Counted from the first letter of the stretch, positions 9,299 through 37,985 are shown. The stretch is 64,000 bases of DNA from an uncultured Acidobacteriota bacterium (GCA_964509835.1 CAZDZC010000003.1:127642-191641); one strand, 5' to 3'. Made by a program: numbers and translations. The notes: generated by a model not told the origin, from the sequence alone.

Positions 9299-10030
9299 AT
9301 GAAAAAAAACATTGAAATTGCTTTGGTTGTTGGTGGCAGTAGGGGCATCGGTCGTTCAATCGCGCTGACATTGGCCGAGGATGGTTTTGATATTCTTCTT
9401 ACTTATAACAGCAGTCATTCCGAGGCAGATAAAGTAAAAGAAAGGATTGAATCCATGGGCCGAAGCTGCCAGTTATTCTGCTTTGATGTTTCAAATCTTT
9501 CACAAACAAAAAACGCTCTGGAAAAGACAGTTAATGAAAAAGCGCCATATGCAGTGATCTTTAATTCGGGAATAGCCAAAGATAATCTGATGGTATGGAT
9601 GTCTCAGAAAGAATGGGAAGATGTTATTTCTGTCAATCTTAATGGATTCTATAATGTTATGAACACAGTTCTTTTCTCCATGCTTCAGAAAAAGAAAGGA
9701 AGAATCATTGCTGTATCTTCCGTATCGGGTGAAACGGGTAATGCCGGACAGGTAAATTATTCAGCTTCAAAAGCAGGTCTTATCGGTGCTGTAAAATCAT
9801 TGGCCAGAGAAGTAGGGAAAAGGAATATTCTTGTTAATGCTGTAGCGCCTGGTATTATAGATACTGAAATGATACATGATCTTCCCAAAGATAAAATTCT
9901 TGCTAACATCCCTCTTAACAGGTTCGGAACTGAGCAGGAAGTTGCATCAGTTGTCAGCTTTCTTTGCAGTGATGGCGCCAGCTACATTCATGGTCAGGTT
10001 ATCGGTATTAATGGTGGATTGTGTATATAA
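9299..10030 (+). CDS. 3-oxoacyl-ACP reductase (FabG-like SDR ketoreductase)
   Basis: The glycine-rich NAD(P)-binding motif VVGGSRGIGRSIA is present, along with the SDR catalytic region (S...YSASKAG) and NAVAPGIIDTEM. Length and motifs are typical of FabG. Confidence 0.85.
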   Translation: MKKNIEIALVVGGSRGIGRSIALTLAEDGFDILLTYNSSHSEADKVKERIESMGRSCQLFCFDVSNLSQTKNALEKTVNEKAPYAVIFNSGIAKDNLMVWMSQKEWEDVISVNLNGFYNVMNTVLFSMLQKKKGRIIAVSSVSGETGNAGQVNYSASKAGLIGAVKSLAREVGKRNILVNAVAPGIIDTEMIHDLPKDKILANIPLNRFGTEQEVASVVSFLCSDGASYIHGQVIGINGGLCI

Positions 10031-10042
10031 AGTCTTCAGTTT

Positions 10043-11548
10043 ATGATCTACGATAACATTGTTATAGGATCGGGAATCAGCGGATTGACAATGGCAATGA
10101 TTCTGGCTATGAACGGAGAGAGTGTTTTAATTCTTGAGAAATCTGATAAAATCGGGGGACTTCTCGGGGGGTTTTACCGTAATGGTATATATTTTGATAC
10201 GGGTTTTCACTTTGCGGGAGGCTTAGCAGAGAACGAATTTTTCAGGCAGGCTTTAGATGTTCTGGGGCTCTCTGATTGTCTTGACATAAGGCTTTTCGGG
10301 TGTGAAGACACTATAGAATATTTGTTTGCCGATAAGAAAGAGGCAAACTGTTTTAATCATACGGACAGAAAGCTTGATATAGGTCTTAAAGAGCTTTTCC
10401 CAAAAGACAGCAAATCAGTATCTGATTTTTTTAAAAGGATTGAAAATATAGCGCTGAAGAGCAGACTGAACAGCCTGAACGAATTTCTTACAGGTACTGG
10501 TAAACTTTCAATGGAAGAAGATTATATATCTCTTGATAATGTCCTCTCCGGTTTATTCAAGAGTGAAAAGATTAAATCAATTCTTTCGGGCTACAATTTA
10601 TGTTACGGTGTCAAGCCATCGGAGATATCTTTTGCAGATCACTGCAGGATTTGCTACTATCTTTACAAATCACCGGGATATTTTAAATATGGCGGGAGAT
10701 CACTGCTAAAAGCGTTTGAAAATAAATTATCCAAATACCGCGTTGAAATAAAAATATCAGATTGTATTTTGGATGTAGGCACATCCGATAATGGCAGAAA
10801 TGTCAGAAATGTGACTCTTAACTCTGGAGAAATCCTTGAATGCAAGAGGTGTATTTTTACGATCCATCCCTATATGATATTGGAAACACTTAAAAATGCT
10901 AAGCTTTCTGCAGCGTTCAGAAAAAGGGTTTCCAATTTTGAGCCGTCGTTAGGGTTTTTCAGTGTTTACGGAACTCTAAAAAGTGACAGGAAATCTGTTC
11001 ACACATTCAGTCATAAAATAATATACCCGTCGGGTGAGAATATGAATAGTATGATGGGTTTCAGGAGTAAAAACAGGGCCATGGCACTTTTTATTCAACC
11101 AATTGATGAGACAACTGGAGGTGAAACCAGAAAAATCTGCGCACTGGAATCATCCTATGCTGAAGATATTTCAGATTTCATTGATCTGGATAATGGGAAA
11201 AAATCAGACAGATATTATGAGTATAAAGAGCAAAAAACATTGTCAATTAAGGACAGGGTTGACGAATATCTTTCATTAGACCGGAACGATTTCAGGGTGC
11301 TGGATTCAGCTTCCATGCTTACTTATAAACAATATTTGAATTCACCTTATGGTTGTGCTTACGGAATCAAACAGAAGATAGGTCAGTTCAATTTGCTGGG
11401 AAGGTTACCGATTAGAAATGTTTTTGCTGCCGGACAGAGTGCTGCCTTACCGGGCCTTTTGGGAGCAATGATGTCCTCATTCATTGTGGCAAAAAATATT
11501 ATCGGTGAGGATAAATTTATGCGTTTTGTTGAGGGAACAATAAACTAG
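10043..11548 (+). CDS. FAD/NAD(P)-binding oxidoreductase, phytoene-desaturase/amine-oxidase-like
   Basis: The N-terminal dinucleotide-binding fold IVIGSGISGLTMAMILAMNGESVLILEK is present. The ~500-aa size is typical of CrtI-like desaturases. Confidence 0.7.
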   Translation: MIYDNIVIGSGISGLTMAMILAMNGESVLILEKSDKIGGLLGGFYRNGIYFDTGFHFAGGLAENEFFRQALDVLGLSDCLDIRLFGCEDTIEYLFADKKEANCFNHTDRKLDIGLKELFPKDSKSVSDFFKRIENIALKSRLNSLNEFLTGTGKLSMEEDYISLDNVLSGLFKSEKIKSILSGYNLCYGVKPSEISFADHCRICYYLYKSPGYFKYGGRSLLKAFENKLSKYRVEIKISDCILDVGTSDNGRNVRNVTLNSGEILECKRCIFTIHPYMILETLKNAKLSAAFRKRVSNFEPSLGFFSVYGTLKSDRKSVHTFSHKIIYPSGENMNSMMGFRSKNRAMALFIQPIDETTGGETRKICALESSYAEDISDFIDLDNGKKSDRYYEYKEQKTLSIKDRVDEYLSLDRNDFRVLDSASMLTYKQYLNSPYGCAYGIKQKIGQFNLLGRLPIRNVFAAGQSAALPGLLGAMMSSFIVAKNIIGEDKFMRFVEGTIN

Positions 11549-12768
11549 TGAACAGAGTGGTTATTACAGGTTTAGGAGCAGTGTCGCCTGCCGGAAATGG
11601 CGTTGACAGCCTCCTGGGATGTTTGAGGAATTCAAAAAACTGTGTAAAAATCATGGATGAATGGAGCGTTTATGGCGGGTTGCTTGGGAAATTGGGTGCT
11701 CCCGCAGAATTGATCAATGAAAAGGAAGTCCCAAGAAACAGCCGAAGGTCAATGAGCCGTATGAGTATTTTTGCTTTGCAGGCTGCTAATGAAGCGATTG
11801 CATGTTCAGGACTGGATCCTGATTTTGTGAGTTCCGGAAATTTCGGTTGCATAATAGGGTCAACGATTGGAAGTTCGGTAACCCTTGAGGAAATATTCAG
11901 AAAGCTTTTACCGGAAAATGATTTGAGCCGTTTAAAATCAACAGATTTCTTTAAATGCCTTTCTCATACAGCCGCAATGAATATTGCGTCATGTTTGAAG
12001 ATCAAGGGGTGGGTAGAATCAACATCTGCGGCCTGCGCATCTGGATTGCAGGCAATAGGATGTGGATTTGATCTGGTGAGAAGCGGCAGGCAGAAGGCAG
12101 TGATCTGCGGTGGAGCGGAAGAGTTGTCTCCGCTTGCTACCGGTTCGTTTGATGTTCTTTATGCGACTTCAACAAGGTATAACACAGAACCGACTAAATC
12201 CCCGCGTCCCTTTGACGCAGAAAGGGACGGACTTGTTTGTGGAGAAGGATGCGGAATTGTCGTTCTTGAGACCCTCGAAATGGCTGAGAAGAGAAACGCA
12301 ACAATTTTCGGAGAAATTCTTGGCTATCATACATGCGGGAACGGGAGTCATATCAGTGATTCAAGCCGTGATGCTATTGTTGCCTGCATAAAAAGCGCTG
12401 TTGCGGACGCAAAGATCTCAATGAAACAGATTGATTATATCAATGCACACGCAACAGGGACAGTTCAAGGGGATCTTGAGGAAGCAATGGGATTAAAGGC
12501 TCTTTTTGGAGAATACGGAACTCCTGTAAGCTCCCTAAAGGGCCATATCGGCCATACGCTTGGGGCTTCCGGCGCATTGGAGTTGATCGCTTCGTTAATA
12601 ATGCTGAAGGAAAATACAATTTTCCCAAATTTGAATCTGGAGCGAACAGATCCTCTCTTTGAGGGAGTAAATCTTTTAAAAGACATAACTCGGGCAGAAA
12701 TAAAAACAGTGCTGAAAAACAGTTTTGCCTTTGGTGGAATAAATGCTTCCATGGTGATTTGCGGATAG
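11548..12768 (+). CDS. Beta-ketoacyl-ACP synthase (FabF/FabB-type KS) with intact Cys-His-His triad; GTG start overlapping upstream stop
   Basis: The active-site Cys sits in STSAACASGLQAIG. The two His residues sit in NAHATGT and GHIGHTLGASG. The protein ends with the KS C-terminal motif AFGGINASMVI. Confidence 0.9.
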   Translation: MNRVVITGLGAVSPAGNGVDSLLGCLRNSKNCVKIMDEWSVYGGLLGKLGAPAELINEKEVPRNSRRSMSRMSIFALQAANEAIACSGLDPDFVSSGNFGCIIGSTIGSSVTLEEIFRKLLPENDLSRLKSTDFFKCLSHTAAMNIASCLKIKGWVESTSAACASGLQAIGCGFDLVRSGRQKAVICGGAEELSPLATGSFDVLYATSTRYNTEPTKSPRPFDAERDGLVCGEGCGIVVLETLEMAEKRNATIFGEILGYHTCGNGSHISDSSRDAIVACIKSAVADAKISMKQIDYINAHATGTVQGDLEEAMGLKALFGEYGTPVSSLKGHIGHTLGASGALELIASLIMLKENTIFPNLNLERTDPLFEGVNLLKDITRAEIKTVLKNSFAFGGINASMVICG

Positions 12769-12792
12769 ACTATTTTGTGTGGAGGAAAAGCA

Positions 12793-13071
12793 ATGAATAA
12801 TGAGAAAATCAGGTCGTATGTTGATGAAATTCTTATAGAGAATTTTGAGTTGAGCAAAGACAAGCTTGATCCTGAAAAAAATCTTTTTGAAGATTTGGGA
12901 TTGGACAGCCTTGATCTTGTAGATTTAGTTGTTGTGCTGCAGGAAAAGTTCAATCTTAACATCAGAAATGATGAACGGATAAGTGCTATCCGCAAAGTGA
13001 AGGATATTTATTCTTATATTGCCGATTTAGCGAAAGAGGGGAAACTCAATTTAGAATCTGATGACCAATAA
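12793..13071 (+). CDS. Acyl carrier protein
   Basis: A ~92-aa protein. DLGLDSLDLVDLV carries the phosphopantetheine-attachment Ser (DSL). The start at 12793 follows a GGAGG RBS. Confidence 0.85.
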   Translation: MNNEKIRSYVDEILIENFELSKDKLDPEKNLFEDLGLDSLDLVDLVVVLQEKFNLNIRNDERISAIRKVKDIYSYIADLAKEGKLNLESDDQ

Positions 13072-13819
13072 GATAAAGCTAGTATTTTTTAATACTTACA
13101 TTTACACTTTATTCCTCATCTACTCAATGGTCACGATTCCTTTAATGTCGTTTGGAGGTGTTTTTGTAATAATACTTAGCACTAAGCGCAAATTTATGAA
13201 ATATTTCCGGCGCTCAATATCTATCTACGGATATATTCTTATCAAGATTGTAATATTTCCTTTCCTGAGAGTTGATTATAAAGATGAATCTCTGAAGAAA
13301 GAAAAAGGCCCGTTTATTTTTGTAGTTAATCATAGGTCGTTAACTGACGCTTTTCTTATGGCTTGTCTGCCGGTTGAGGCAATTCAGGTTGTAAAGGACT
13401 GGGCGACAAAAATACCTGTTTTGGGATTATATGCAAGATCCGCGGGTTATATCAATCTTTCAAAATTGACCTTTGAGCAGTATGAAGAGAAAGTTTCCGG
13501 TTTTTTGAAGCAGGGAGTATCCGTTATATGTTTTCCGGAGGGGACAAGGTCAAGGGGAAAAGAAATGGGACATTTTCACAGTTCAATCTTCAAAATAGCT
13601 CTGAAGGAAAGATGCCGTTTGGTGCCGTTGTGCATAGCGGGAAATGAAGATAAACCTTGCAGAGGATCTTTGGTTTTACATCCCGGTAAGGTTATAATGA
13701 GAAGACTGGAGGCGATAGATCTGGAAAAGGAGAATTTTGACAGTGCTTTCAGGCTCAAAACAGAAACTTGGGGAATTATGGACTGCAAACTCAGAGATCT
13801 TGACGAATTATTAAAATGA
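13061..13819 (+). CDS. 1-acyl-sn-glycerol-3-phosphate/lysophospholipid acyltransferase (PlsC family)
   Basis: The HX4D motif (NHRSLTD) and the FPEGTRS motif are present, with N-terminal transmembrane segments. Confidence 0.8.
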   Translation: MTNKIKLVFFNTYIYTLFLIYSMVTIPLMSFGGVFVIILSTKRKFMKYFRRSISIYGYILIKIVIFPFLRVDYKDESLKKEKGPFIFVVNHRSLTDAFLMACLPVEAIQVVKDWATKIPVLGLYARSAGYINLSKLTFEQYEEKVSGFLKQGVSVICFPEGTRSRGKEMGHFHSSIFKIALKERCRLVPLCIAGNEDKPCRGSLVLHPGKVIMRRLEAIDLEKENFDSAFRLKTETWGIMDCKLRDLDELLK

Positions 13820-15099
13820 TTAAAATTAAAAACCGACCAAGCTTTGCTTCACAAGAGGAAATTATTGAAATCCAGGAAAAGGCTTTAAAAAAACAGATAG
13901 ATTATTGTGTAAAAAATTCAAAGTATTATAAAAAAAGATTCAAAGGTGTTGATGTTTCCGCTGTTAAGCTTTCAAATTTGAGTGATTTGCCTCTGACAAG
14001 CAAATCGGACATGCAGAGGAATAACGAGAGCTTTATTGCAGTTCCGGACGAAAAAGTAACTGATATTGTTTTTACTTCCGGAAGTACCGCAACACCTTTG
14101 AAAGTTGTATTTTCCGAAAATGATTTGAAGCGATTGGCTTTAAATGAAGAAAAATCTTTTCTGACATGCGGGTTATCGTGTTCAGACACAGTTCTTTTAA
14201 CATGTACAATGGACAGATGCTTTATTGCCGGTATGGCTTATTTTCTGGGATTGAGGGCATTGAATGCTTCGGTGCTGAGAACCGGCAACAGCCCCTTGGA
14301 TGCTCAGGCCCGCATTATTGAAATAACAAAACCAACGGCGATTCTTGGTGTTCCCTCATTTCTCAAGAAACTGGCTGAGTATATTCAGGGAAATTATTCT
14401 TCAGAATTGTTTAAAAGCGTAAAACGACTTATCTGCATCGGCGAACCTCTGAGGAACAGACTTATGGAACCTCTGAAAATAACCAAATATCTTGAAAGCA
14501 TCTGGGATGCGAAAGCTTATTCAACATATGCTTCAACAGAAGTTGCTACCACTTTTTGTGAGTGCGGTGATCAGAAAGGGGGTCATCTTCTCCCCGATCT
14601 GGGTATTCTGGAAATTGTAAATGAAAATGGAACCCCACTGCCTGCCGGTGAAATCGGTGAAATTGTAATAACCCCTCTTGGTGTCGAAGCCACTCCTCTT
14701 ATAAGATATCGGACTGGAGATATGGGTTTTATGCTGACAGAACCATGCCGTTGCGGAAGAAACACATTAAGATTGGGACCTATACTGGGAAGAAAGAATC
14801 TGATGTTGAAGGTGAAAGGAACAACGGTTTTCCCCCAGGTAATATTGTCATTTCTGCAGGAAAACAACTATATTTCTGATTATTACATTTCGGTGCACGC
14901 ACTTGATAATCTTTCAGACAGAGTTAAAGTACATGTATCGTTAAAAGACGAAAATGATAAAATTATGAACGAAATTGAAAACGGACTTAAAAGTATTTTG
15001 AGGGTAAAACCGGAATTAATTCTTGAAAATGATGAAACGATGAAAACCGTTATTTACGGATCTTCAAGAAAAGCAAAGAGGATTTTTGATGATAGGTGA
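13816..15099 (+). CDS. Adenylate-forming enzyme of the phenylacetate-CoA ligase (PaaK / coenzyme F390 synthetase) family
   Basis: The ~430-aa size and the short adenylation motif FTSGSTATP match the PaaK-like architecture. Confidence 0.7.
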   Translation: MIKIKNRPSFASQEEIIEIQEKALKKQIDYCVKNSKYYKKRFKGVDVSAVKLSNLSDLPLTSKSDMQRNNESFIAVPDEKVTDIVFTSGSTATPLKVVFSENDLKRLALNEEKSFLTCGLSCSDTVLLTCTMDRCFIAGMAYFLGLRALNASVLRTGNSPLDAQARIIEITKPTAILGVPSFLKKLAEYIQGNYSSELFKSVKRLICIGEPLRNRLMEPLKITKYLESIWDAKAYSTYASTEVATTFCECGDQKGGHLLPDLGILEIVNENGTPLPAGEIGEIVITPLGVEATPLIRYRTGDMGFMLTEPCRCGRNTLRLGPILGRKNLMLKVKGTTVFPQVILSFLQENNYISDYYISVHALDNLSDRVKVHVSLKDENDKIMNEIENGLKSILRVKPELILENDETMKTVIYGSSRKAKRIFDDR

Positions 15100-15102
15100 T
15101 CT

Positions 15103-19616: not shown

Positions 19617-19617
19617 T

Positions 19618-26567: not shown

Positions 26568-26845
26568 TACTGTTTCATATTTTCATAAATATAATCTGCA
26601 ATCGTGCCGAGATTTATGAAAATCTCCTTGTTGTTTTGCAAATCGGCAACTTTCATCCCGAAATGCCGTTGAAGAATCACTACAATTTCCACCGCATCCA
26701 GAGAATCCAGACCCAGACCTCCGTTTTCTTCTCCGAAAAGGGGCTGATCAGCATTGATGTTTTCAGGTTTTGTATCGCCCAACGAGAGATTTGAAACAAA
26801 TAGATCTTTTAACTCGCTTATAATTTCATCTTTTGATTTTATCAT
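26567..26845 (-). CDS. Acyl carrier protein (track ORF extends to 27001 through the upstream gene; internal Met at 26845 is the likely start)
   Basis: LGLDSLDAVEIVV carries the phosphopantetheinylation Ser. The ~92-aa product is typical of ACP. Confidence 0.8.
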   Translation of the reverse strand: MIKSKDEIISELKDLFVSNLSLGDTKPENINADQPLFGEENGGLGLDSLDAVEIVVILQRHFGMKVADLQNNKEIFINLGTIADYIYENMKQ

Positions 26846-26855
26846 CACATCTCCT

Positions 26856-32880: not shown

Positions 32881-34053
32881 CTAAACAACTTCCAACAGCA
32901 TATAGCCAACTGAAAATCTGGCGCTTTCGGGAATATAACAAAGAACCTGCTGTCCTTTTTTAAGTTTTCCTGAAAAGAACAATTCTTCAAGCATAATGAA
33001 TATTGATGCGCTTCCCACATTTCCCTTATATTCAAGATTAGTAAACCATTTTTCGTACGGGATTCGGAAATCGATTTTTTCCATATGATCGTAAACCCGT
33101 TCCCTGAAATACCCCGATGAGTAATGAGGTAAAAACCAGTCGATCATCTCCGGGGTCATCTCTCTTTTACGAGCAATGGCACGCAATCCTTTTGTTATTG
33201 TTACATTCATGACTTCCCGTTTAACAAGCTCAACATCCTGTTTGACCGCAAAGTAATCATTTTTTACCGCTTCCAGAAGAGAGCCGCATTCACGCCAACC
33301 CTTGACTGAGCCGTCTTCGTTTTTTACGGCTCCTATATACATGCAGGTTTCATAATTACCTGCGTAACTGAGCATATCAATCCATTTTATTTTCAGAGAA
33401 ATTCCCGAATCATTTCTTCTGCTGGAAATGTACAGAGAACCGGCTCCGTCTGACAGCATCCACCGGAGAAAGTCAACATTGAATGCTAGATAAGGGTTAT
33501 TATCTACATCAGTGTCCTCAGGATGGGAACAATCGTGAAATCCTGAATTCATATATGAGGACGAAAGCTCTGATGCCGTCACTATTGCTGTATCCGACTG
33601 CCCTGATAAAATTCCCGTGTATGCATATTTTAAAGCCGTCATGCTTGTTAAGCAGACACCGCTTGTCGCGACGGCTTCACATGGAGGCAGTTTCAGTTCT
33701 CCCTGCACCATAAGCGCGTGATTTGGTGTTATGACATCGGGGGATGTAGTTCCGCAGCTCAGGATATCAATGCCTTCTTTTCTGATTGAATCCCAGGATT
33801 TGAGATTCATTATTGCCTGGGCGCAAAGCTGGGTATTAGTGTGGGTAAGTTTTCCGGTTTCAGGATCAATCGCGTAATACCGCTCCCTGATCCTGTTGTT
33901 CTTCAGGATTATATTACGCGTTCTTGACGTTAGATTGTGAACTTTCCCCAGCACATTTTCAATGCGCTCGTTTGACACAGGCTTATTTGGCAGAAAAATT
34001 CCAAGATCATTAATGTAAACATTTGTTTTAATATTCTCTTTCATCGTTTCCAT
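32881..34053 (-). CDS. FabH-like 3-oxoacyl-ACP synthase III (KAS III / initiation ketosynthase)
   Basis: Thiolase fold, with the active-site region ATSGVCLTSMTALKYA and the C-terminal GNVGSASIFIMLEEL typical of the FabH family. Confidence 0.75.
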   Translation of the reverse strand: METMKENIKTNVYINDLGIFLPNKPVSNERIENVLGKVHNLTSRTRNIILKNNRIRERYYAIDPETGKLTHTNTQLCAQAIMNLKSWDSIRKEGIDILSCGTTSPDVITPNHALMVQGELKLPPCEAVATSGVCLTSMTALKYAYTGILSGQSDTAIVTASELSSSYMNSGFHDCSHPEDTDVDNNPYLAFNVDFLRWMLSDGAGSLYISSRRNDSGISLKIKWIDMLSYAGNYETCMYIGAVKNEDGSVKGWRECGSLLEAVKNDYFAVKQDVELVKREVMNVTITKGLRAIARKREMTPEMIDWFLPHYSSGYFRERVYDHMEKIDFRIPYEKWFTNLEYKGNVGSASIFIMLEELFFSGKLKKGQQVLCYIPESARFSVGYMLLEVV

Positions 34054-34056
34054 TGC

Positions 34057-34335
34057 TCACATATTCTGTGGATTCCTGACATAATCCGCTAAATTCCTCA
34101 GAGAGGAAAGAACCTGCCTGCCTGTTTTTGAATCACCGATCCTTACACCATATCGTCGTTGAACAGCGACGGCAATTTCAACGACATCAAGAGAATCCAG
34201 CCCGAAGGGGGAGTTTTCCCCCACTAGAGGGGTGTCAGGAAAGATATCAGCCAAAGGATGTTTGATTTTGCATTCCTCTACGATCAATCCGAGAATTTCC
34301 TTTTCGAATTCATTCAGCTCTTCTGTTTTGTTCAT
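34057..34335 (-). CDS. Acyl carrier protein
   Basis: FGLDSLDVVEIAVAV carries the DSL Ser. The protein is 92 aa. Confidence 0.85.
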   Translation of the reverse strand: MNKTEELNEFEKEILGLIVEECKIKHPLADIFPDTPLVGENSPFGLDSLDVVEIAVAVQRRYGVRIGDSKTGRQVLSSLRNLADYVRNPQNM

Positions 34336-34349: not shown

Positions 34350-35699
34350 TTAAGATAAATAATTCTTAAGTGAATATCCGGCAATTATAAGACACGAGGC
34401 AAAAAAAAGAATCAGACATAGTACCCAAGGTAAAACATCCGGAATGTTACCATTTCTGACGAAAATATCAAGAAATCCGTTAAGGCCCCAGGCAAGAGGA
34501 GATGCGATACTGATTTTTTTCAGCAAGTCAGGCATTACATAGACCGGAACCATTATTCCCCCAATAGCAGAAGCTATAACCACTGACAATGGTCCGAATA
34601 CTGCCGCTTGCCGGTAGCTTTTTGCAAGAGTCCCGATCAGAATCCCGTAACCCACGGCAGCAAGGGAACTGCTTATTGCCATAACCAGCAATGCGGGTCT
34701 TGATTTTCCGAGTTCAAGTGCTGGAGTCCCCAGAACAGGAAGAATATACAAGCCAACGCATATCATTATAAAGAACTGAAAAAGACACACAGCCATATAG
34801 GCAAATATTTTCCCCAGCAATAAGTTAATCTTCGGGGAGGGGGTAAGCAACAGGCGGTTAAGGGTTCCGTTGTCCCGTTCCATCAGCAGTGTCCCTCCGA
34901 GAGGTATCACGATGAAGAACATTCCAAACAGCGCCCAGGCAGGCACATTCTGTTGCACTGCAGTCGGGGAGGCAATTTTTTCTGTATTAACGGCGATAAA
35001 TCTGTCGTCATTCCAGTCAAAATTGAGGCCCGTTCCATGATCTTCTTCAGGAAGATACGGTTTCACCATATCATCAGATAAATTTCTGCTTTTGATTCCT
35101 GACTGGATCGCATGCGCGTGTCTGTTGAAATTTTCAGGCAGAATATCCATTATGAGCTTAAACTCAATGCTCAACAGCGCCAGCTTGATGCCGGATTCGA
35201 TCGCTGATCTTAGCGATCCCTGTGTTACAGGATCAAAGAAGAGGATTATTTCATTCTTGGCTCCCCTGTCTTCCGACAGTACTGATGAGCTATTAGGAAA
35301 TGCTTCGCCCTTAAATGATTTACCCATTCTTTCGTTTATGGATACCATCAGTTTCCCCGTCAGGTTTTCCGGGATGAAAATCCCAAGCTGATAATCGCCA
35401 TTATTTACAGCATCCAGAGCCATCTGTTTAGTTACAGTCCGGTTATCCAACTGTTTGAATACGGAAAAGTTGTTGTTTCCTGACGATAACCAATTTTCAA
35501 TATGAGTTCCAACTTCACCCGTATCCTCGTTCACAAGAAGCACCTCAATCTCTGTACCATCCTGCGTAAGAACATTGTTCTGTACCAGTGTCATTATGAT
35601 TACCAGAAGGACGGGCATTAAAAAAATTACAGCAAGCCCGGTTCTGTCCCTTCTCAAATGTAAAAATTCATTCAGCATTGTTGCGATAATTGAATTCAT
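34350..35699 (-). CDS. ABC-2 family transporter permease
   Basis: An N-terminal TM helix and large periplasmic loop are followed by a C-terminal block of ~5 TM helices. The gene is coupled to the downstream ATPase. Confidence 0.7.
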   Translation of the reverse strand: MNSIIATMLNEFLHLRRDRTGLAVIFLMPVLLVIIMTLVQNNVLTQDGTEIEVLLVNEDTGEVGTHIENWLSSGNNNFSVFKQLDNRTVTKQMALDAVNNGDYQLGIFIPENLTGKLMVSINERMGKSFKGEAFPNSSSVLSEDRGAKNEIILFFDPVTQGSLRSAIESGIKLALLSIEFKLIMDILPENFNRHAHAIQSGIKSRNLSDDMVKPYLPEEDHGTGLNFDWNDDRFIAVNTEKIASPTAVQQNVPAWALFGMFFIVIPLGGTLLMERDNGTLNRLLLTPSPKINLLLGKIFAYMAVCLFQFFIMICVGLYILPVLGTPALELGKSRPALLVMAISSSLAAVGYGILIGTLAKSYRQAAVFGPLSVVIASAIGGIMVPVYVMPDLLKKISIASPLAWGLNGFLDIFVRNGNIPDVLPWVLCLILFFASCLIIAGYSLKNYLS

Positions 35700-36457
35700 G
35701 TTCCGCTTCTCACTTCATGCCCGGTAAGCTTAATAAACAAATCTTCAAGATTTCGACATTCATCATTATCCTTTATAAGATCGCGAGGAGCACCGGATAA
35801 TATAATTCTGCCATAATCTATGAAACTAATTTTGTCACATAGTTTCTGTGCCTCATCCATGTAATGGCCAGTGTAAACGATTGTGAGTCCTTCCTTTACC
35901 ATGTTCTTGAGCAAATCCAGTATCATGTTTCTGGACTGGACATCAATTCCTACAGTGGGCTCATCAAGCAGCAGGATTTTTGGTTTGTGAATCAAGCCGA
36001 TAGCAAGATTAACGCGGCGTTTCATACCTCCGGACAGATTTGCCATTATCTTGTCCGAATGTGAACTTAAACACATAATTTCGCTCAGCCAATCAATTCT
36101 TGAAAGCAACAATTTTCTACTTATGCCGTACATTCTGCCGAAATATCTGAAGTTTTCAACAGCCGTAAGATCCGGATAGAAGGCAAGTTCCTGCGGGACA
36201 AGGCCTATATCTCTTTTAATCTGATCCGGGGCGGATAAGGCATCAATTTCGCGGATAATAACTTTGCCCGAATCAGGTTTCAGCAGGGTGCTGATGATTG
36301 ACATAAGAGTGGTTTTCCCCGCCCCGTTTGGCCCCAGCAATCCGTATATAATCCCCTGTTCTACAGAAAAACTTACCCCGGAAAGCGCTTTTGTACTGTT
36401 TTGCCTGTAAGTTTTAACGAGATCTTTTACTTGGATTATAGGGGATTGATTGTTCAT
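35696..36457 (-). CDS. ABC transporter ATP-binding protein
   Basis: Walker A (GLLGPNGAGKTT), ABC signature (LSGGMKRR) and Walker B (ILLLDEPT) are all present. Confidence 0.9.
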   Translation of the reverse strand: MNNQSPIIQVKDLVKTYRQNSTKALSGVSFSVEQGIIYGLLGPNGAGKTTLMSIISTLLKPDSGKVIIREIDALSAPDQIKRDIGLVPQELAFYPDLTAVENFRYFGRMYGISRKLLLSRIDWLSEIMCLSSHSDKIMANLSGGMKRRVNLAIGLIHKPKILLLDEPTVGIDVQSRNMILDLLKNMVKEGLTIVYTGHYMDEAQKLCDKISFIDYGRIILSGAPRDLIKDNDECRNLEDLFIKLTGHEVRSGT

Positions 36458-37470
36458 AACTTCACGGATTCTGCTAATTTTCTTAAGTCAAGAAAAATCT
36501 TCCTCTCTTTTTCCGCGCATTCCATAAGAATTCCGCTGAGTTTTTCATACGGCTCCTCTAAATCAATTCTGTCCTTGAGGTTTTTTGAACCAAGATACGC
36601 AAATTGCCTCCACAGATCGCCAACTCCTGTCAATTGTTCGGAAAGATTGCCGAATTCATCATTATTAAAAAGTTCTGCAGCCTCCTGCAGGAAAGCGGCA
36701 TAAATGAATCTGAAGCCTGCCCCCCCGGTGCCTATTTCTTCCTGCATTCTTATGACATTTCCGAGGTTCCTGGCAGCCTGTTTTTTACCGAAATTCTTTT
36801 CCCAGAGCAGCATACGGCCGGCAAGAAATCTGATTCCGCGAACACCCATAAAAAAAAGAGGAACAGAATTCATAACAAAACAGGTTTCCTTAATTCCTTT
36901 AATCACGGGTTTTCTCAAATCAACTTTTGCAGGGACATTAACCGGGTAGTACATTTTCCCGCTGGGTGCCATGGGGCCTTTCGCAAATCTGGCTTTAAGA
37001 AAATCATCTGTTCCGCATCTGACGGGAACCTCGATAACAGGATCGCTTATCAGATATTCATTCTTCTCTTTTCCGTAAACGACAACATTATGCGCGTTGA
37101 AGTGGAAACGCATTCCTTCCGGGAAATAAGGCACCCAGTAAATCCCGATCTGACAGCAGACAGGGCTTCCGTTTTCCAGCAGTCTGTCCAGCTTATTGAC
37201 CGCAACAGATTTATCGGAGAACTTTTCCATTTTGAAATCAATGGTCAGGCGGTTCATCGCTTTTTTGAATATACCCCCCGGTACTCCTCTGAAAGTGGTT
37301 AAAGGTATTGATCCGAATTTTATAAAGGGTGCATAGCCGAAAAAAAGCCCGGAACCTATTCCGAAAACCATTGGCTCTGATATATCAAGGCCGTGATGTC
37401 TCAGAATGCTTGATGTGACGCCATTTTCGCAGTGGGCTGACTGCCTGTGTTCATAATTTATAATCGTCAT
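36454..37470 (-). CDS. BtrH-N/DUF4872-like protein (putative ACP-dependent acyl/aminoacyl transferase, papain-like fold)
   Basis: The N-terminus SAHCENGVTSSILRHHGLDISEPMVFGIGSGLFFGY resembles the BtrH N-terminal domain family. This is recalled, not computed. Confidence 0.55.
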   Translation of the reverse strand: MTIINYEHRQSAHCENGVTSSILRHHGLDISEPMVFGIGSGLFFGYAPFIKFGSIPLTTFRGVPGGIFKKAMNRLTIDFKMEKFSDKSVAVNKLDRLLENGSPVCCQIGIYWVPYFPEGMRFHFNAHNVVVYGKEKNEYLISDPVIEVPVRCGTDDFLKARFAKGPMAPSGKMYYPVNVPAKVDLRKPVIKGIKETCFVMNSVPLFFMGVRGIRFLAGRMLLWEKNFGKKQAARNLGNVIRMQEEIGTGGAGFRFIYAAFLQEAAELFNNDEFGNLSEQLTGVGDLWRQFAYLGSKNLKDRIDLEEPYEKLSGILMECAEKERKIFLDLRKLAESVKL

Positions 37471-37985
37471 ATATTTCTGTCAGCTTTTATGTGAGCCCAT
37501 CTTGCAATGCAGTCAGGCTCATCTGGATTTTCTGGAAGTTTGTTAAGCTGATCTGCTTTTATTTGGAACAAGTCAGCATAAATCCGGATTATGTCGTCAC
37601 CAAGCGTTTTAAATTTCTCTGCCTTTAAATGTCTCTTTACACGCCATTTCGGGATTCCTGAATATTGGGACAACAAACCGACATCCATCTGATTAATGAT
37701 CATAAAATAATAAAGCGTTGATTTCGTCCCATTTCTGACTTCCTCAGCAGCATCTTTCACAAGTTTGAGCAGATCTTTCCAGAACTGTGAATTGGCAATG
37801 GTTTTGGCGTTCCAGCCAGAACTCAGCTCTTTCACATATTTCCCGTTTTTGTCCAGAGCATACTGGACTTCCTTATGTCCTGCATAAAGCGCTTCATCCT
37901 GAGGTACTTCTTTTGATCTCATCCCTACAACCTTGACATATTTAACGCCATAATAACCAGATCGATGCTTTTTTGCCAATTCCAA
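37467..37985 (-). CDS. Hypothetical protein, first gene of the minus-strand operon (overlaps next gene by 4 nt)
   Basis: A 172-aa ORF, translationally coupled to the downstream gene. No recognised motif. Confidence 0.5.
   Translation of the reverse strand: MELAKKHRSGYYGVKYVKVVGMRSKEVPQDEALYAGHKEVQYALDKNGKYVKELSSGWNAKTIANSQFWKDLLKLVKDAAEEVRNGTKSTLYYFMIINQMDVGLLSQYSGIPKWRVKRHLKAEKFKTLGDDIIRIYADLFQIKADQLNKLPENPDEPDCIARWAHIKADRNI

What the first reader, a model, noticed from the sequence alone, without database searches (positions are those of the whole stretch)
9299..37985. ~29 kb convergent two-operon lipid/polyketide-type cluster combining an aryl-polyene-like FAS-II core with five radical SAM enzymes (four cobalamin-dependent)
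**What is present.** Within 29 kb the cluster encodes:
- 4 catalytic KS, plus one CLF-like and one KS-like fragment protein
- FabH-like KAS III
- 3 stand-alone ACPs
- FabG-like KR, FabZ-like DH, 4HBT thioesterase
- PaaK-like adenylating enzyme and an FAD desaturase-like oxidoreductase
- LolA-like carrier and MMPL exporter
- LpxL-like and PlsC-like acyltransferases, a GT2 and an ABC-2 exporter
- four class-B (B12) radical SAMs, three of them consecutive, and one SPASM radical SAM

**What is absent.** There is no enoyl reductase, no ammonia lyase and no methyltransferase.

**Interpretation.** The core set (KS/CLF, ACPs, KR, DH, TE, LolA, MMPL, LpxL-like, GT) is what aryl-polyene clusters use to build and export an outer-membrane-anchored unsaturated acyl chain. 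B12-radical SAMs are known from other lipid pathways to methylate or form C-C bonds at unactivated carbons; the GDGT ring synthases GrsA/B are an example. From memory, a similar combination (FabF-like KS, ACP, FabZ, a phytoene-desaturase-like enzyme, and several radical SAMs) has been proposed for ladderane lipid biosynthesis in anammox Planctomycetes. I am recalling that, not verifying it.

The product is therefore most likely a radical-SAM-modified polyunsaturated or polycyclic fatty-acyl glycolipid. The pathway chemistry is not established.
Basis: partly seen in the sequence, partly recalled or inferred. Interest (0 to 1): 0.85.

Follow-up and report, generated by a model that had tools for sequence, protein, structure and literature searches.

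The report
Orphan radical-SAM polyene/resorcinol lipid gene cluster
This is a real 29-kb gene cluster for an unknown outer-membrane lipid: pigment-type (aryl-polyene/flexirubin) fatty-acid machinery plus five radical-SAM enzymes, belonging to a widespread orphan family first noticed in anammox and sulfate-reducing bacteria, so it is a new member of a known but unsolved kind.

Summary
About 31 tightly packed genes (8551-37985) encode the listed families. All five radical SAM (rSAM) enzymes have intact CxxxCxxC motifs.

- There are three, not four, Cys-His-His ketosynthases.
- The "FabH-like" gene is a DarB/StlD-type cyclising ketosynthase.
- No DarA aromatase is present.

The two convergent operons are one cluster. 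Of 35 related loci with enough flank, 29 carry genes of both operons, usually collinear on one strand.

The family occurs in hundreds of species, mostly named as Desulfobacterota, with Holophagae, Planctomycetota and others. It matches the "extended FAS-II / ladderane-like" loci of Kuenenia and Desulfotalea (Rattray 2009). Its product is still unknown.

The source organism is not an anammox bacterium.

New points:
- The cobalamin-type rSAM B12d and DarA occupy the same slot beside DarB and never co-occur (51 vs 19 loci, 0 with both).
- The rSAM of the anammox-exclusive ladderane candidate cluster (Kuste3608) is a divergent sister of B12c.
- The SPASM rSAM is fused here to a FabZ/ApeP-like dehydratase domain.

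Verdict: new member of a known orphan family; chemistry unresolved.

The parts
8551..9255 (+). Secreted or lipoprotein-like 234-aa protein, probably the first gene of the cluster
   Evidence: No Pfam hit. Homologues (30-39% identity) lie inside related clusters in L001, L019, L067, L070 and L075.
9266..10030 (+). FabG-type 3-oxoacyl-ACP reductase (KR; FlxB-like)
   Evidence: Passes NF004200 FabG (304 bits, cut-off 273). FlxB scores 297, below its cut-off of 340. Pfam adh_short_C2.
10043..11548 (+). CrtI/amine-oxidase-family flavoprotein ('phytoene-desaturase-like')
   Evidence: Pfam Amino_oxidase and NAD_binding_8. CrtD/CrtI-family hits are below cut-off. 23-27% identical to Kuste3336 and Kuste3607.
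11548..12768 (+). FabF/FabB-like ketosynthase KS03, catalytic (Cys-His-His)
   Evidence: Pfam ketoacyl-synt N and C domains. AACASG, HATGT and GHTLGASG motifs present.
12775..13071 (+). Acyl carrier protein
   Evidence: Pfam PP-binding. DSL motif.
13061..13819 (+). PlsC-type acyltransferase (ApeD-like)
   Evidence: Pfam Acyltransferase.
13816..15099 (+). PaaK/FlxY-like acyl-adenylate ligase (starter activation)
   Evidence: Pfam AMP-binding and AMP-binding_C_2. The best NCBIfam hit is FlxY at 441.6 bits, below its cut-off of 520.
15103..16569 (+). rSAM/SPASM enzyme (residues 1-340) fused in frame to a FabZ/ApeP-like hotdog domain (residues 351-486)
   Evidence: Pfam Radical_SAM and SPASM. CNFKCPYC motif. 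38% identical to Kuste3343, E 2e-92. No stop codon between the two parts. The C-terminal domain family profile hits FabZ/FabA structures, best 6qsr_B at E 1.8e-14. The two parts are separate genes in relatives.
16529..17245 (+). LolA-like periplasmic lipid carrier
   Evidence: Pfam LolA. LolA2_flexi scores 85, below its cut-off of 125.
17235..19616 (+). RND/MMPL-like membrane exporter (ApeM-like)
   Evidence: No Pfam hit at 1e-3. Weak NCBIfam HpnN, MMPL and HAE3 hits, E 4e-18. Syntenic in 32 related loci.
19573..20289 (+). DUF3261 protein (ApeN-like)
   Evidence: Pfam DUF3261, 23.1 bits.
20286..20681 (+). ApeI/FabZ-like dehydratase subunit carrying the GHFP histidine motif
   Evidence: Weak Pfam ApeI-like and FabA hits. 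The family alignment has an invariant F.GHFP motif.
20665..21153 (+). 4HBT-type thioesterase (ApeK-like)
   Evidence: Pfam 4HBT_2 and 4HBT.
21090..22271 (+). Ketosynthase KS13, catalytic (Cys-His-His), AmcF-like
   Evidence: Pfam. Triad present. AmcF scores 208 bits, below its cut-off.
22289..22933 (+). KS-N-terminal-like fragment, presumed CLF-type partner of KS13
   Evidence: No Pfam hit. 27% identical over 108 aa to the CLF-like protein, E 3e-6. Longer KS-N-terminal-like ORFs recur in 22 related loci; the example scanned lies in this slot and matches both this gene and the CLF-like gene.
22930..24372 (+). B12-binding rSAM 'B12a'
   Evidence: Pfam B12-binding and Radical_SAM. CVYECSYC motif. 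Orthologues are about 55% identical across phyla. No NCBIfam cut-off is met; HpnJ, P-methylase and BchE are the best hits.
24380..25423 (-). CLF-like non-catalytic KS homologue (Phe at the Cys position, both His lost)
   Evidence: Pfam ketoacyl-synt N domain only. Alignment. Same Phe163 feature as Kuste2805 and Geobacter NP_951518 in Table 2 of PMC2649909.
25413..26567 (-). Ketosynthase KS18, catalytic (Cys-His-His), partner of the CLF-like protein
   Evidence: Pfam. Triad present. Adjacent to the CLF-like gene in 31 of 32 loci.
26567..27001 (-). Acyl carrier protein; the true start is probably the internal Met at about 26845
   Evidence: Pfam PP-binding. DSL motif. The ORF overlaps the LpxL-like gene.
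26856..27758 (-). LpxL-like lipid A-type acyltransferase (ApeA-like)
   Evidence: Pfam Lip_A_acyltrans.
27751..28980 (-). GT2 glycosyltransferase fused to DUF2062
   Evidence: Pfam Glycos_transf_2 and DUF2062.
28944..30266 (-). B12-binding rSAM 'B12b', TIGR04072 family, homologue of Kuste3342
   Evidence: TIGR04072 scores 523.7, above its cut-off of 360. 34% identical to Kuste3342, E 2e-77. CAKKCLYC motif.
30263..31534 (-). B12-binding rSAM 'B12c', the most conserved protein of the family; sister group of Kuste3608 and Kuste2803
   Evidence: Weak Pfam hits. CKYNCFPC motif. Median 59% identity to orthologues. 32% and 29% identical to Kuste3608 and Kuste2803; NJ tree.
31594..32868 (-). B12-binding rSAM 'B12d', always next to DarB; occupies the DarA slot
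   Evidence: Pfam. CTGSCNFC motif. HpnR and BchE are the best hits, below cut-off. Adjacency to DarB: 51 loci with B12d, 19 with DarA, 0 with both.
32881..34053 (-). StlD/DarB-family cyclising ketosynthase
   Evidence: NF005293 scores 521, above its cut-off of 450. The DarB exception model scores 447.5, below 550. Cys, His and Asn motifs are visible in the sequence.
34057..34335 (-). Acyl carrier protein (DarC position)
   Evidence: Pfam PP-binding. DSL motif.
34350..35699 (-). ABC-2 permease (DarJ position)
   Evidence: Pfam ABC2_membrane_3.
35696..36457 (-). ABC transporter ATPase (DarI position)
   Evidence: Pfam ABC_tran.
36454..37470 (-). BtrH-related acyltransferase DarH
   Evidence: NF053550 scores 446, above its cut-off of 300. 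Pfam BtrH_N and DUF4872.
37467..37985 (-). DarG-family protein (function unknown); the true start is probably about 21 codons downstream
   Evidence: NF053536 scores 141, above its cut-off of 70; the profile aligns from residue 22.
37995..38024 (-). Promoter-like site upstream of the minus-strand operon
   Evidence: TTGACA-18-TAGAAT with an extended TG, 11 of 12 matches. This is a consensus match only.

Best explanation
The region 8551-37985 is one biosynthesis-and-export cluster. It belongs to a widespread orphan family whose named members are mostly from anaerobic lineages, the 'extended FAS-II / ladderane-like' loci of Rattray 2009. Its architecture is flexirubin-like: an aryl-polyene-type type-II synthase joined to a dialkylresorcinol-type module, with five rSAM enzymes added.

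**Inferred pathway (by homology; none of it is shown experimentally)**
1. The FlxY/PaaK-like ligase activates a carboxylic-acid starter onto an ACP.
2. KS03 and the two KS/CLF-type pairs (KS13 with its fragment, KS18 with the Phe-variant CLF) elongate it. They work with the FabG-type KR and a split FabZ-type dehydratase. In that dehydratase the GHFP histidine comes from the 131-aa subunit and the E..AQ glutamate from the hotdog domain fused to the SPASM enzyme. No enoyl reductase is encoded, so the chain should be unsaturated.
3. DarB condenses two acyl thioesters into a cyclohexanedione-type ring.
4. B12d sits where the DarA aromatase sits in other members, so it either replaces DarA or processes the ring differently.
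5. DarH, a BtrH-type ACP-dependent acyltransferase, joins the acyl moieties.
6. The PlsC-like, LpxL-like and GT2 enzymes attach a lipid or sugar anchor.
7. The ABC-2 transporter, MMPL, LolA and DUF3261 proteins move the product to the outer membrane.
8. The SPASM rSAM, B12a, B12b and B12c modify the ACP-bound carbon chain by C-methylation, C-C bond formation or desaturation. Which of these they do is unknown.
For: **Gene families and motifs.**

**One cluster.**
- 29 of 35 loci with at least 8 kb on each side of B12a carry at least two genes from each of the window's operons, mostly collinear.
- Conserved adjacencies: B12c-B12b in 32 of 35 loci, B12b-B12a in 36 of 39, KS18-CLF in 31 of 32, DarH-DarG in 12 of 12.

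**Family identity.**
- B12b passes TIGR04072.
- Kuste3343 and Kuste3342 are homologous to the SPASM enzyme and to B12b.
- Rattray's description of the Kuenenia and Desulfotalea loci matches the gene content.

**Flexirubin/DAR architecture.**
- The DarB-family, DarH and DarG models are passed.
- The published flexirubin and arcuflavin gene lists have the same DarG/H/I/J/C/B set (the arcuflavin table uses other letters for some genes). The flexirubin list also holds LolA, MMPL, DUF2062, a phytoene-desaturase-like gene and a PaaK-like gene.

**B12d in the DarA slot.** 51 DarB genes are adjacent to B12d, 19 to DarA and 0 to both. The DarA identity rests on NCBI names of 56-58% identical proteins.

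**rSAM acting on thioester-bound chains.**
- In-frame SPASM-hotdog fusion.
- SPASM fused to an alpha/beta-hydrolase in 5 related loci.
- The His and Glu motifs are split between the two hotdog families.

**Strong selection.** B12a and B12c are the most conserved proteins of the family (55% and 59% median identity, against 25-45% for most others).
Against: - No product is known for any member. D. psychrophila lipid extracts showed no ladderanes, and the polyunsaturated hydrocarbons found there were only tentatively tied to its homologous clusters (PMC2649909). Heterologous expression of the Kuenenia genes gave no new fatty acid (PMC4790861).
- Most flexirubin-specific NCBIfam models score below their cut-offs (FlxY, FlxB, LolA2, the DarB exception model).
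- No ammonia lyase or chorismate-derived starter gene is present, so an aryl head group is not established.
- DarA also occurs in anaerobic Thermodesulfobacteriota. 'B12d is the anaerobic substitute for DarA' is therefore not the only reading; B12d may give a different ring product.
- Some relatives lack B12b and B12c, or hold B12d-DarB as an isolated pair, so the family is modular.
- The SPASM-hotdog fusion is seen only in this window and could come from an assembly error. The same contig has an in-frame stop in dnaE.
- The trees are simple neighbour-joining trees without support values.
Confidence: 0.6

Rival explanations
1. It is a ladderane (concatenated cyclobutane) lipid pathway, as in anammox bacteria.
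For: - Homologues of Kuste3342 and Kuste3343 are present, and B12b passes TIGR04072.
- The cluster has KS/CLF-like pairs, a PDH-like enzyme and B12-rSAMs, the same ingredients as the anammox candidate clusters.
- B12c is the closest relative of Kuste3608 found here.
Against: - GuaA is at most 73% identical to anything in the database, and the named hits are Acidobacteriota-like, not Brocadiales.
- The family occurs in hundreds of non-anammox species. D. psychrophila, which has the homologous clusters, makes no ladderanes (PMC2649909).
- The cluster now regarded as exclusive to ladderane producers is kuste3603-3608 (PMC10139942). Its rSAM is only 32% identical to B12c, whereas B12c orthologues are about 59% identical across phyla and Kuste3608 and Kuste2803 are 56% identical to each other.
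Confidence: 0.04
2. It is an ordinary flexirubin or aryl-polyene-dialkylresorcinol pigment cluster. The rSAM enzymes only add peripheral methyl groups, replacing the SAM methyltransferase ApeB/FlxI-type step.
For: - Near-complete Flx/Dar/Ape gene content.
- No conventional methyltransferase in the window, while some relatives carry a deacetylase-methyltransferase fusion.
- Most characterised class-B rSAMs are methylases. B12b's nearest characterised relatives are TsrM and BzaD.
Against: - Four different, deeply separated B12-rSAM families plus a SPASM enzyme are far more than peripheral methylation needs.
- B12a and B12c are the most conserved proteins of the whole family.
- B12d excludes DarA rather than a methyltransferase.
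- No ammonia lyase or other aryl-starter gene is present.
- The flexirubin equivalog cut-offs are not met.
Confidence: 0.2
3. It is an oxygen-independent route to polyunsaturated fatty acids or hydrocarbons (Rattray's proposal). The PDH-like enzyme and the rSAMs would act as desaturases, and the product would enter ordinary membrane lipids.
For: - D. psychrophila, which carries homologous clusters, makes C31:8 and C31:9 hydrocarbons.
- No enoyl reductase is encoded.
- A PlsC-type acyltransferase is present.
Against: - The cluster carries dedicated outer-membrane export genes (LolA, MMPL, DUF3261), an LpxL-like acyltransferase, a GT2 and a DarB ring-forming module. A bulk membrane PUFA pathway needs none of these.
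- The Kuenenia PDH homologues showed no phytoene-desaturase (CrtI-type) activity and no new fatty acids appeared on expression.
- From my own knowledge, not tested here: such hydrocarbons are generally attributed to Pfa and Ole genes.
Confidence: 0.08
4. Two unrelated clusters (an APE-like one and a DAR/rSAM one) merely lie next to each other.
For: - The family is modular. B12d-DarB pairs and B12a occur alone in some loci.
- Gene order differs between the window and its relatives.
Against: - 29 of 35 informative loci hold genes from both window operons.
- The window's operon boundary does not coincide with the module boundary. B12b and B12c sit with B12a in relatives but on the other operon here.
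Confidence: 0.03

Closest known systems
Extended FAS-II loci of Kuenenia stuttgartiensis (kuste3335-3352, kuste2802-2805), Desulfotalea psychrophila, Geobacter and Pelobacter (Rattray et al. 2009). antiSMASH's 'ladderane lipids' class cites that paper as its basis.
   Same: - Kuste3343-type SPASM rSAM (38% identity).
- Kuste3342-type B12-rSAM (34%, TIGR04072).
- PDH-like flavoprotein, PaaK-like ligase, MMPL-like protein, GT, FabG, FabZ-like DH and several FabF paralogues, including one with Phe in place of the catalytic Cys.
- The product is unknown in both.
   Different: - The window adds the full DarB/DarG/DarH/ABC module and four distinct B12-rSAMs in one locus.
- It lacks the SAM methyltransferase and polysaccharide-deacetylase genes of Kuenenia.
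- It is arranged as two convergent operons.
- It has a SPASM-hotdog fusion.
Flexirubin (flx/dar) cluster of Chitinophaga pinensis and Flavobacterium johnsoniae, and the arcuflavin cluster of Azoarcus
   Same: - The DarB, DarC(ACP), DarG, DarH(BtrH-like), DarI and DarJ(ABC) set.
- With the flexirubin cluster only: KS plus KS-N-terminal-like partner, LolA, MMPL, DUF2062, a phytoene-desaturase-like gene, a PaaK-like ligase and an SDR.
   Different: - No DarA aromatase and no tyrosine ammonia lyase.
- Five rSAM enzymes are present; none is listed in the published flexirubin or arcuflavin gene tables read here.
- Most Flx equivalog models score below cut-off.
- Named members of the window's family are mostly from anaerobic lineages, not Bacteroidota or Betaproteobacteria.
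Aryl-polyene (ape) clusters of E. coli and Xenorhabdus
   Same: - KS:CLF-type pairs.
- Split ApeI/ApeP-type dehydratase. The best solved match, 6qsr, is deposited as a FabA/FabZ dehydratase; I believe it is the ApeI:ApeP complex, from memory.
- KR, 4HBT thioesterase, adenylating enzyme, PlsC-like, LpxL-like, GT2, LolA, MMPL and DUF3261.
   Different: - No ApeB methyltransferase.
- Added DarB module, PDH-like enzyme and five rSAMs.
- The starter unit is unknown.
Anammox 'Cluster I' (kuste3603-3608), the ladderane candidate exclusive to anammox bacteria
   Same: - ACP, FabZ-like DH, a KS plus inactive-KS heterodimer, a PDH-like enzyme and one B12-rSAM.
- Kuste3608 groups as sister to the window's B12c family.
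   Different: - Kuste3608 is only 32% identical to B12c.
- The inactive KS has Val, not Phe, at the Cys position.
- Cluster I has no export, Dar or acyltransferase genes.
- It is restricted to ladderane producers.
darABC dialkylresorcinol module (Pseudomonas, Chitinophaga; Fuchs et al. 2013)
   Same: A DarB-family ketosynthase with an adjacent ACP, and a tightly linked second gene beside darB.
   Different: The linked gene is a B12-binding rSAM (B12d) instead of the roughly 307-aa DarA. The two are mutually exclusive across 70 loci.
Cispentacin AmcF/AmcG type-II PKS-like pair
   Same: KS13 and KS18 give sub-threshold hits to AmcF. The CLF-like protein gives a sub-threshold hit to the truncated partner AmcG.
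   Different: Scores are well below cut-off (about 210 against 325). There are no other amc genes. The resemblance is limited to the KS plus truncated-partner architecture.

Membership tests
Rattray-type extended FAS-II / 'ladderane-like' orphan cluster family | Kuste3342-type B12-binding rSAM (TIGR04072) | tested here: met
   B12b scores 523.7 bits against a cut-off of 360. 34% identical to Kuste3342, E 2e-77.
Rattray-type extended FAS-II / 'ladderane-like' orphan cluster family | Kuste3343-type rSAM/SPASM enzyme | tested here: met
   38% identity over 346 aa, E 2e-92.
Rattray-type extended FAS-II / 'ladderane-like' orphan cluster family | Non-canonical FabF/FabB paralogue lacking the catalytic Cys, next to a canonical one | tested here: met
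   The protein at 24380-25423 has Phe at the Cys site and has lost both His. This matches Kuste2805 and Geobacter NP_951518 in Table 2.
Rattray-type extended FAS-II / 'ladderane-like' orphan cluster family | Synteny with the Desulfobacterota clusters (PDH-like, PaaK-like, MMPL-like, GT) | tested here: met
   29 of 35 informative loci share genes of both operons.
Anammox Cluster I (ladderane candidate, kuste3603-3608) | Orthologue of the Kuste3608 B12-rSAM | tested here: not met
   The closest window protein is B12c at 32%. Kuste3608 and Kuste2803 are 56% identical to each other, and B12c orthologues are about 59% identical. Kuste3608 is a sister group, not a member.
Anammox Cluster I (ladderane candidate, kuste3603-3608) | Found only in anammox (Brocadiales) genomes | tested here: not met
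   The best GuaA hit is 73% to an unnamed MAG. Other hits are 61% or lower, and the named ones are Acidobacteriota or Thermoanaerobaculia.
Anammox Cluster I (ladderane candidate, kuste3603-3608) | amxACP (long 3-10 helix) and short-chain-specific amxFabZ | not tested
   No amxACP or amxFabZ sequences were compared.
Anammox Cluster I (ladderane candidate, kuste3603-3608) | Organism produces ladderane lipids | not testable with these tools
   Needs lipid analysis.
Flexirubin / dialkylresorcinol (flx-dar) clusters | DarB cyclising ketosynthase | tested here: met
   The StlD/DarB family model NF005293 scores 521, above 450. The narrower DarB exception model scores 447.5, below 550. Cys, His and Asn are present.
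Flexirubin / dialkylresorcinol (flx-dar) clusters | DarA aromatase next to DarB | tested here: not met
   No DarA-like sequence is in the window (tblastn at E<=10 gives noise only). B12d occupies the position.
Flexirubin / dialkylresorcinol (flx-dar) clusters | DarG, DarH (BtrH-like) and the ABC transporter pair | tested here: met
   DarH scores 446 (cut-off 300) and the DarG family model 141 (cut-off 70). ABC ATPase and ABC-2 permease are present.
Flexirubin / dialkylresorcinol (flx-dar) clusters | Tyrosine ammonia lyase FlxA and 4-coumarate ligase FlxY (aryl starter) | tested here: not met
   No ammonia lyase is in the cluster or flanks. The FlxY-like ligase scores 441.6, below its cut-off of 520.
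Aryl-polyene (ape) clusters | KS with a CLF-type partner | tested here: met
   Two pairs: KS13 with its fragment, and KS18 with the CLF-like protein.
Aryl-polyene (ape) clusters | ApeI:ApeP-type split dehydratase | tested here: met
   The g11 family has the GHFP motif. The C-terminal hotdog family hits 6qsr_B at E 1.8e-14. The Pfam ApeI-like and ApeP-like hits are weak.
Aryl-polyene (ape) clusters | LolA, MMPL and DUF3261 export set, with LpxL-like, PlsC-like and GT2 anchoring enzymes | tested here: met
Aryl-polyene (ape) clusters | SAM methyltransferase (ApeB) and an aryl-acid starter | tested here: not met
   No methyltransferase domain was found. The starter cannot be determined from sequence.
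Class B (cobalamin-dependent) rSAM enzymes | N-terminal B12-binding domain plus a CxxxCxxC rSAM core | tested here: met
   All four proteins have both. B12c's Pfam rSAM score is below cut-off, but the motif is intact.
Class B (cobalamin-dependent) rSAM enzymes | Membership of a characterised subfamily (HpnR, HpnJ, BchE, TsrM, BzaD, PhpK, AprD4, TokK and others) | tested here: not met
   All such NCBIfam models score far below their cut-offs. The best PDB matches are remote, E >= 1e-27.
Class B (cobalamin-dependent) rSAM enzymes | Cobalamin binding and the reaction catalysed | not testable with these tools
   Needs biochemistry.

The most novel reading that the evidence does not exclude
The family makes a class of lipid not yet described: an unsaturated type-II-synthase acyl chain joined to a DarB-derived carbocycle, with its skeleton rebuilt by rSAM chemistry on ACP-bound intermediates. 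That chemistry could be C-C bond formation, ring formation or C-methylation. B12d would be a cobalamin/rSAM alternative to the DarA aromatase. B12c would carry out the ancestral reaction from which the anammox Kuste3608 enzyme, and possibly cyclobutane formation, evolved. Cultured non-anammox carriers could then serve as the missing experimental model for ladderane-type rSAM chemistry.
Probability: 0.3. Interest if true: 0.85.

Novelty: new member of a known kind. Interest (0 to 1): 0.55.

Why it matters
A 2026 review states that ladderanes and the jawsamycin product are the only fatty-acyl (non-isoprenoid) lipids even proposed to be modified by radical-SAM enzymes (PMC13459092). This cluster family places five such enzymes in a type-II fatty-acid/polyketide pathway. 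It occurs in hundreds of species-level genomes, and the 'ladderane-type' clusters that antiSMASH calls in non-anammox phyla are transcribed in nature (PMC9902471). No product is known.

Three results here make the problem easier to attack:
- One rSAM (B12d) can be tied to a specific step, the fate of the DarB cyclohexanedione, because it and DarA exclude each other.
- The SPASM enzyme can be tied to the dehydratase and the ACP-bound chain through gene fusions.
- The rSAM of the anammox-exclusive ladderane candidate cluster is related to B12c. B12c-type genes lie in loci titled as cultured non-anammox strains (for example Desulfurivibrio dismutans, L076). Anammox bacteria have no genetic system (PMC10139942).

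For this particular window the message is more modest. It is a well-preserved, rearranged member of that family in a deep-branching uncultured bacterium.

Tried and rejected
- **Exact-sequence look-ups of window proteins** found no contig record. The source organism could only be placed roughly, through GuaA homologues.
- **Wrong guess corrected.** I first assumed B12a was the Kuste2803 orthologue, from synteny in a Brocadiaceae MAG (L036). Direct comparison with the Kuenenia sequences in the S6 table of PMC4790861 showed this is wrong. Kuste2803 and Kuste3608 are closest to B12c, and B12a is only 27% identical over 225 aa.
- **NCBIfam and Pfam did not recognise the ~307-aa gene beside DarB** in the 16 metagenomic loci that lack B12d (only a weak flavodoxin-like N-terminus). 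Its identity as DarA came from source names of homologues.
- **Profile-profile comparison of the two hotdog families** (A4 against A5) was uninformative, with probability 4%. The profile-against-PDB search settled the fold instead.
- **Literature searches linking DarB or dialkylresorcinol with radical SAM, TIGR04072, or Geobacter with aryl polyene** returned nothing. The library is incomplete, so this is weak evidence of absence.
- **No riboswitch or other Rfam element** lies in or near the cluster.
- **Recent horizontal transfer was considered.** GC content of the cluster (0.38-0.42) matches the flanks, and no integrase or tRNA lies at the edges. However, the nearest relative has queH and rmuC adjacent where the window holds about 47 kb.
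- **Structure prediction was not used.** Only window sequences could be supplied, and a class-B rSAM fold would not discriminate between reactions.

Full report

Yes. ORF listing and Pfam/NCBIfam scans show about 31 tightly packed genes in two convergent operons.

The plus-strand operon (9266-24372, probably starting at 8551) encodes:
- a FabG-type ketoreductase (KR);
- a CrtI/amine-oxidase-like flavoprotein (PDH-like);
- a ketosynthase (KS03), an ACP and a PlsC-type acyltransferase;
- a PaaK-like ligase;
- an rSAM/SPASM enzyme;
- LolA, an RND/MMPL-like protein and a DUF3261 protein;
- an ApeI/FabZ-like dehydratase and a 4HBT thioesterase;
- a second ketosynthase (KS13) with a 214-aa KS-N-terminal-like fragment;
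- a B12-binding rSAM (B12a).

The minus-strand operon (37985-24380), in transcription order, encodes:
- a DarG-family protein and a BtrH-related DarH;
- an ABC ATPase and an ABC-2 permease;
- an ACP and a StlD/DarB-family ketosynthase;
- three consecutive B12-rSAMs (B12d, B12c, B12b);
- a GT2-DUF2062 protein and an LpxL-like acyltransferase;
- an ACP, a third ketosynthase (KS18) and a CLF-like KS homologue.

All five rSAMs have CxxxCxxC and all three ACPs have DSL. KS03, KS13 and KS18 keep Cys-His-His. The CLF-like protein has Phe at the Cys position and has lost both His. No enoyl reductase, ammonia lyase or SAM methyltransferase is present in the cluster or in the rest of the window.

There are three, not four, catalytic FabF-type KS. 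The 'FabH-like' gene was too loosely named. DarH and DarG were omitted.

**2. One cluster or two?**

I used the junction gene B12a as an anchor, because it lets 10-kb flanks reach into both operons. It has thousands of homologues at about 55% identity. Their titles name Desulfobacterota (Geobacter, Geomonas, Desulfuromonadales, Desulfobacterales, Desulfurivibrio), Holophagae, Brocadiia, Phycisphaerae, Lentisphaerae, Nitrospirota, Elusimicrobia, Rokubacteria and others.

Mapping all window proteins onto the 80 retrieved loci gives a recurrent, mostly collinear order:

hotdog-LolA-MMPL-DUF3261-DH-TE-KS13-fragment-B12c-B12b-B12a-GT2-LpxL-ACP-KS18-CLF-DarG-DarH-ABC-ABC2-ACP

This block converges on KS03-PlsC-PaaK-SPASM-B12d-DarB.

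Of 35 loci with at least 8 kb on both sides of B12a, 29 contain at least two genes from each of the window's operons. The window is thus a rearranged copy of a single conserved cluster. In the window, B12b and B12c have moved to the other strand from B12a.

**3. What family is it?**

The gene set matches the 'extended FAS-II' loci that Rattray et al. described in Kuenenia stuttgartiensis (kuste3335-3352, kuste2802-2805) and found syntenic in Desulfotalea psychrophila, Geobacter and Pelobacter (PMC2649909). The 'ladderane lipids' class of antiSMASH cites that paper as its basis (PMC4489286).

I tested the match directly with Kuenenia protein sequences from the S6 table of PMC4790861. The results are:

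| Kuenenia protein | Closest window protein | Identity | E-value |
|---|---|---|---|
| Kuste3343 | SPASM rSAM | 38% | 2e-92 |
| Kuste3342 | B12b | 34% | 2e-77 |
| Kuste3608 | B12c | 32% | 9e-50 |
| Kuste2803 | B12c | 29% | 6e-41 |
| Kuste3336, Kuste3607 | PDH-like flavoprotein | 23-27% | about 1e-13 |

- B12b also passes TIGR04072, 'lipid biosynthesis B12-binding/radical SAM protein'.
- Kuste3608 is the rSAM of 'Cluster I', now regarded as exclusive to ladderane producers (PMC10139942; bioRxiv 2026.05.19.726425). It is 56% identical to its paralogue Kuste2803.
- B12c orthologues across phyla are about 59% identical to the window's B12c.
- In a neighbour-joining tree, Kuste3608 and Kuste2803 form the sister group of the B12c clade. 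B12a, B12b (with Kuste3342) and B12d form three other clean clades.

The window therefore belongs to the family shared with non-ladderane bacteria, not to the anammox-specific cluster.

The organism is not an anammox bacterium. Its GuaA is 73% identical to one unnamed MAG and 61% or less to everything else, and the named hits are Acidobacteriota or Thermoanaerobaculia.

As of 2023-2026, the literature states that such clusters in non-anammox phyla have unknown function and are expressed in nature (PMC9902471). It also states that rSAM modification of fatty-acyl lipids is otherwise proposed only for ladderanes and jawsamycin (PMC13459092).

**4.

NCBIfam places the 'KAS III' in the StlD/DarB family (521 bits, cut-off 450). 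It places the BtrH-like protein in DarH (446, cut-off 300) and the 172-aa protein in the DarG family (141, cut-off 70).

Together with the ABC pair and the ACP, this is the DarG/H/I/J/C/B set of the flexirubin and arcuflavin clusters (PMC12968099 and PMC3949708). The flexirubin gene list also contains LolA, an MMPL fusion, DUF2062, a 'phytoene desaturase', a PaaK-like ligase, an SDR and a KS plus KS-N-terminal-like pair.

The best NCBIfam hits of the window's ligase and LolA are FlxY and LolA2, and FlxB is the KR's second-best hit after FabG. All three score below their cut-offs. The architecture is thus flexirubin-like: a polyene acid plus a DarB-derived ring. It lacks DarA and the ammonia lyase, and it has five added rSAMs.

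**5. B12d sits in DarA's place.**

In the window and in all five GTDB loci where it could be judged, B12d is adjacent to DarB. I widened the sample with a metagenome scan seeded on DarB.

- Of 59 metagenomic loci with room upstream of DarB, 43 have B12d immediately upstream on the same strand. The other 16 have a roughly 307-aa ORF there.
- That ORF is DarA. Homologues 56-58% identical to it are named 'dialkylresorcinol condensing enzyme DarA' in NCBI records of Thermodesulfobacteriota.
- Over all loci, 51 DarB genes are adjacent to B12d, 19 to DarA, none to both, 2 to neither, and 14 lie at a contig edge.
- DarA-associated DarBs are nested at several places among B12d-associated ones in a neighbour-joining tree.
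- The window contains no DarA-like sequence.
- B12d-DarB pairs also occur with no other cluster gene within 6 kb, like darAB modules.

What is shown is mutual exclusion at one conserved position. What is inferred is that B12d acts on the DarB product, either as a non-homologous substitute for the aromatase or by diverting the cyclohexanedione to another product. DarA is itself present in anaerobic lineages, so a simple 'anaerobic replacement' story is not required.

**6. The SPASM enzyme is tied to the dehydratase.**

The 488-aa ORF at 15103-16569 has two parts: an rSAM/SPASM core (residues 1-340, the full length of Kuste3343) and a 135-aa C-terminal domain. They are joined without a stop codon.

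- In relatives that domain is a separate gene upstream of LolA.
- A profile of the domain family hits solved FabA/FabZ dehydratases, best 6qsr_B at E 1.8e-14.
- It keeps the LIPHRPPM and E..AQ motifs but has no GHFP histidine.
- The 131-aa dehydratase family (20286-20681) has an invariant GHFP.

This is the complementary arrangement expected for an ApeI:ApeP-type heterodimer. That interpretation rests on established FabZ active-site knowledge and was not tested here.

In five other loci the SPASM enzyme is fused to an alpha/beta-hydrolase or thioesterase domain. Both fusions point to an ACP- or thioester-bound acyl chain as the rSAM substrate. The fusion in this window could be an assembly artefact, since the contig also has an in-frame TAA in dnaE.

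**7. How it most likely works.**

Steps inferred by homology to the APE and flexirubin systems:
1. The ligase loads a starter onto an ACP.
2. KS03 and the two KS/CLF-type pairs elongate it with the KR and the split DH. There is no enoyl reductase, so the chain should be unsaturated.
3. DarB makes a six-membered ring from two acyl thioesters, and B12d processes it.
4. DarH joins the acyl moieties.
5. The PlsC-like, LpxL-like and GT2 enzymes add an anchor.
6. The ABC-2, MMPL, LolA and DUF3261 proteins export the product to the outer membrane.

The reactions of B12a, B12b, B12c and the SPASM enzyme are unknown. None reaches the cut-off of any characterised subfamily, and their closest solved structures (AprD4, TsrM, TokK, 9ccb) are remote. 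B12a and B12c are the most conserved proteins of the family, which argues for core rather than decorative roles.

**8. Genomic setting.**

The nearest relative has guaA-dnaE-queH-rmuC contiguous (L081). The window has about 47 kb between queH (8003-8575) and rmuC (56128-57402). That stretch holds the lipid cluster, two giant surface proteins, and VWA and MoxR genes. GC content does not differ from the flanks, and no integrase or flanking tRNA was seen. The region is variable, but it is not an obvious recent island.

**9. Novelty and score.**

The cluster type has been in the literature since 2006-2009, has a TIGRFAM, and resembles the loci behind an antiSMASH class. The window is a new member of a known kind.

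The family itself remains an unsolved problem with potentially new chemistry. Three observations here appear not to be in the searchable literature and make it more testable:
- the DarA/B12d exclusion;
- Kuste3608 as sister of B12c;
- the rSAM fusions.

The locus is real and the underlying biology is unresolved, but this locus is not unique or unprecedented.

Noticed in passing
window 4494-7973 (stop at 7050-7052): dnaE is split by a single in-frame TAA. The closest relative has GAA (Glu) in an otherwise conserved stretch (DSII*ARDKKGKIESLFDF against DSIIEARNSKGKIESIFDF). This is probably a sequencing or assembly error or a minority variant in a MAG. It is a caution for other single-base features of this contig.
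   Followed up: partly
window 8003-57402, compared with L081:15035-16920: queH and rmuC are adjacent in the nearest relative (GuaA 73% identical). In the window they are separated by about 47 kb holding the lipid cluster, two giant secreted proteins, and VWA and MoxR genes. The region is variable, with no integrase, no tRNA at the edges and no GC anomaly.
   Followed up: partly
window 39014-46531 and 46597-53652: Two giant ORFs lie directly downstream of the cluster. One is 2505 aa, with gingipain-like peptidase C25, MAM, PKD and FN3 domains. The other is 2351 aa, with many thrombospondin type-3 repeats and higher GC (0.45-0.47).
   Followed up: no
window 57399-63205 (minus strand): A second small gene group lies here: two paralogous HEAT-repeat proteins of about 490 aa, two proteins with no Pfam hit, and another rSAM/SPASM enzyme (61245-62372). 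It is unrelated to the lipid cluster by position.
   Followed up: no
L002-L077 (for example L032:15827-16630, L024:16167-17648, L020:711-2555, L054:12342-14441): Related clusters often carry genes the window lacks: a PagL-like outer-membrane deacylase (16 loci), a polysaccharide-deacetylase plus SAM-methyltransferase fusion (6), an AMP-ligase plus ApeP-like dehydratase fusion (5), and an alpha/beta-hydrolase plus rSAM/SPASM fusion (5).
   Followed up: partly
L098, L107, L108, L121, L125, L133: In these loci, B12d-DarB pairs have no other cluster gene recognisable in the flanking sequence retrieved (up to 6 kb per side). This suggests a self-contained two-gene module analogous to darAB.
   Followed up: no
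window 24369-24587 (+): A 72-aa ORF has no family hit. It overlaps the 3' end of the convergent CLF-like gene and is most likely not a gene.
   Followed up: no
window 964-1037 and 18-911: tRNA-Phe(GAA) lies just downstream of a recA gene that is truncated by the window edge.
   Followed up: no
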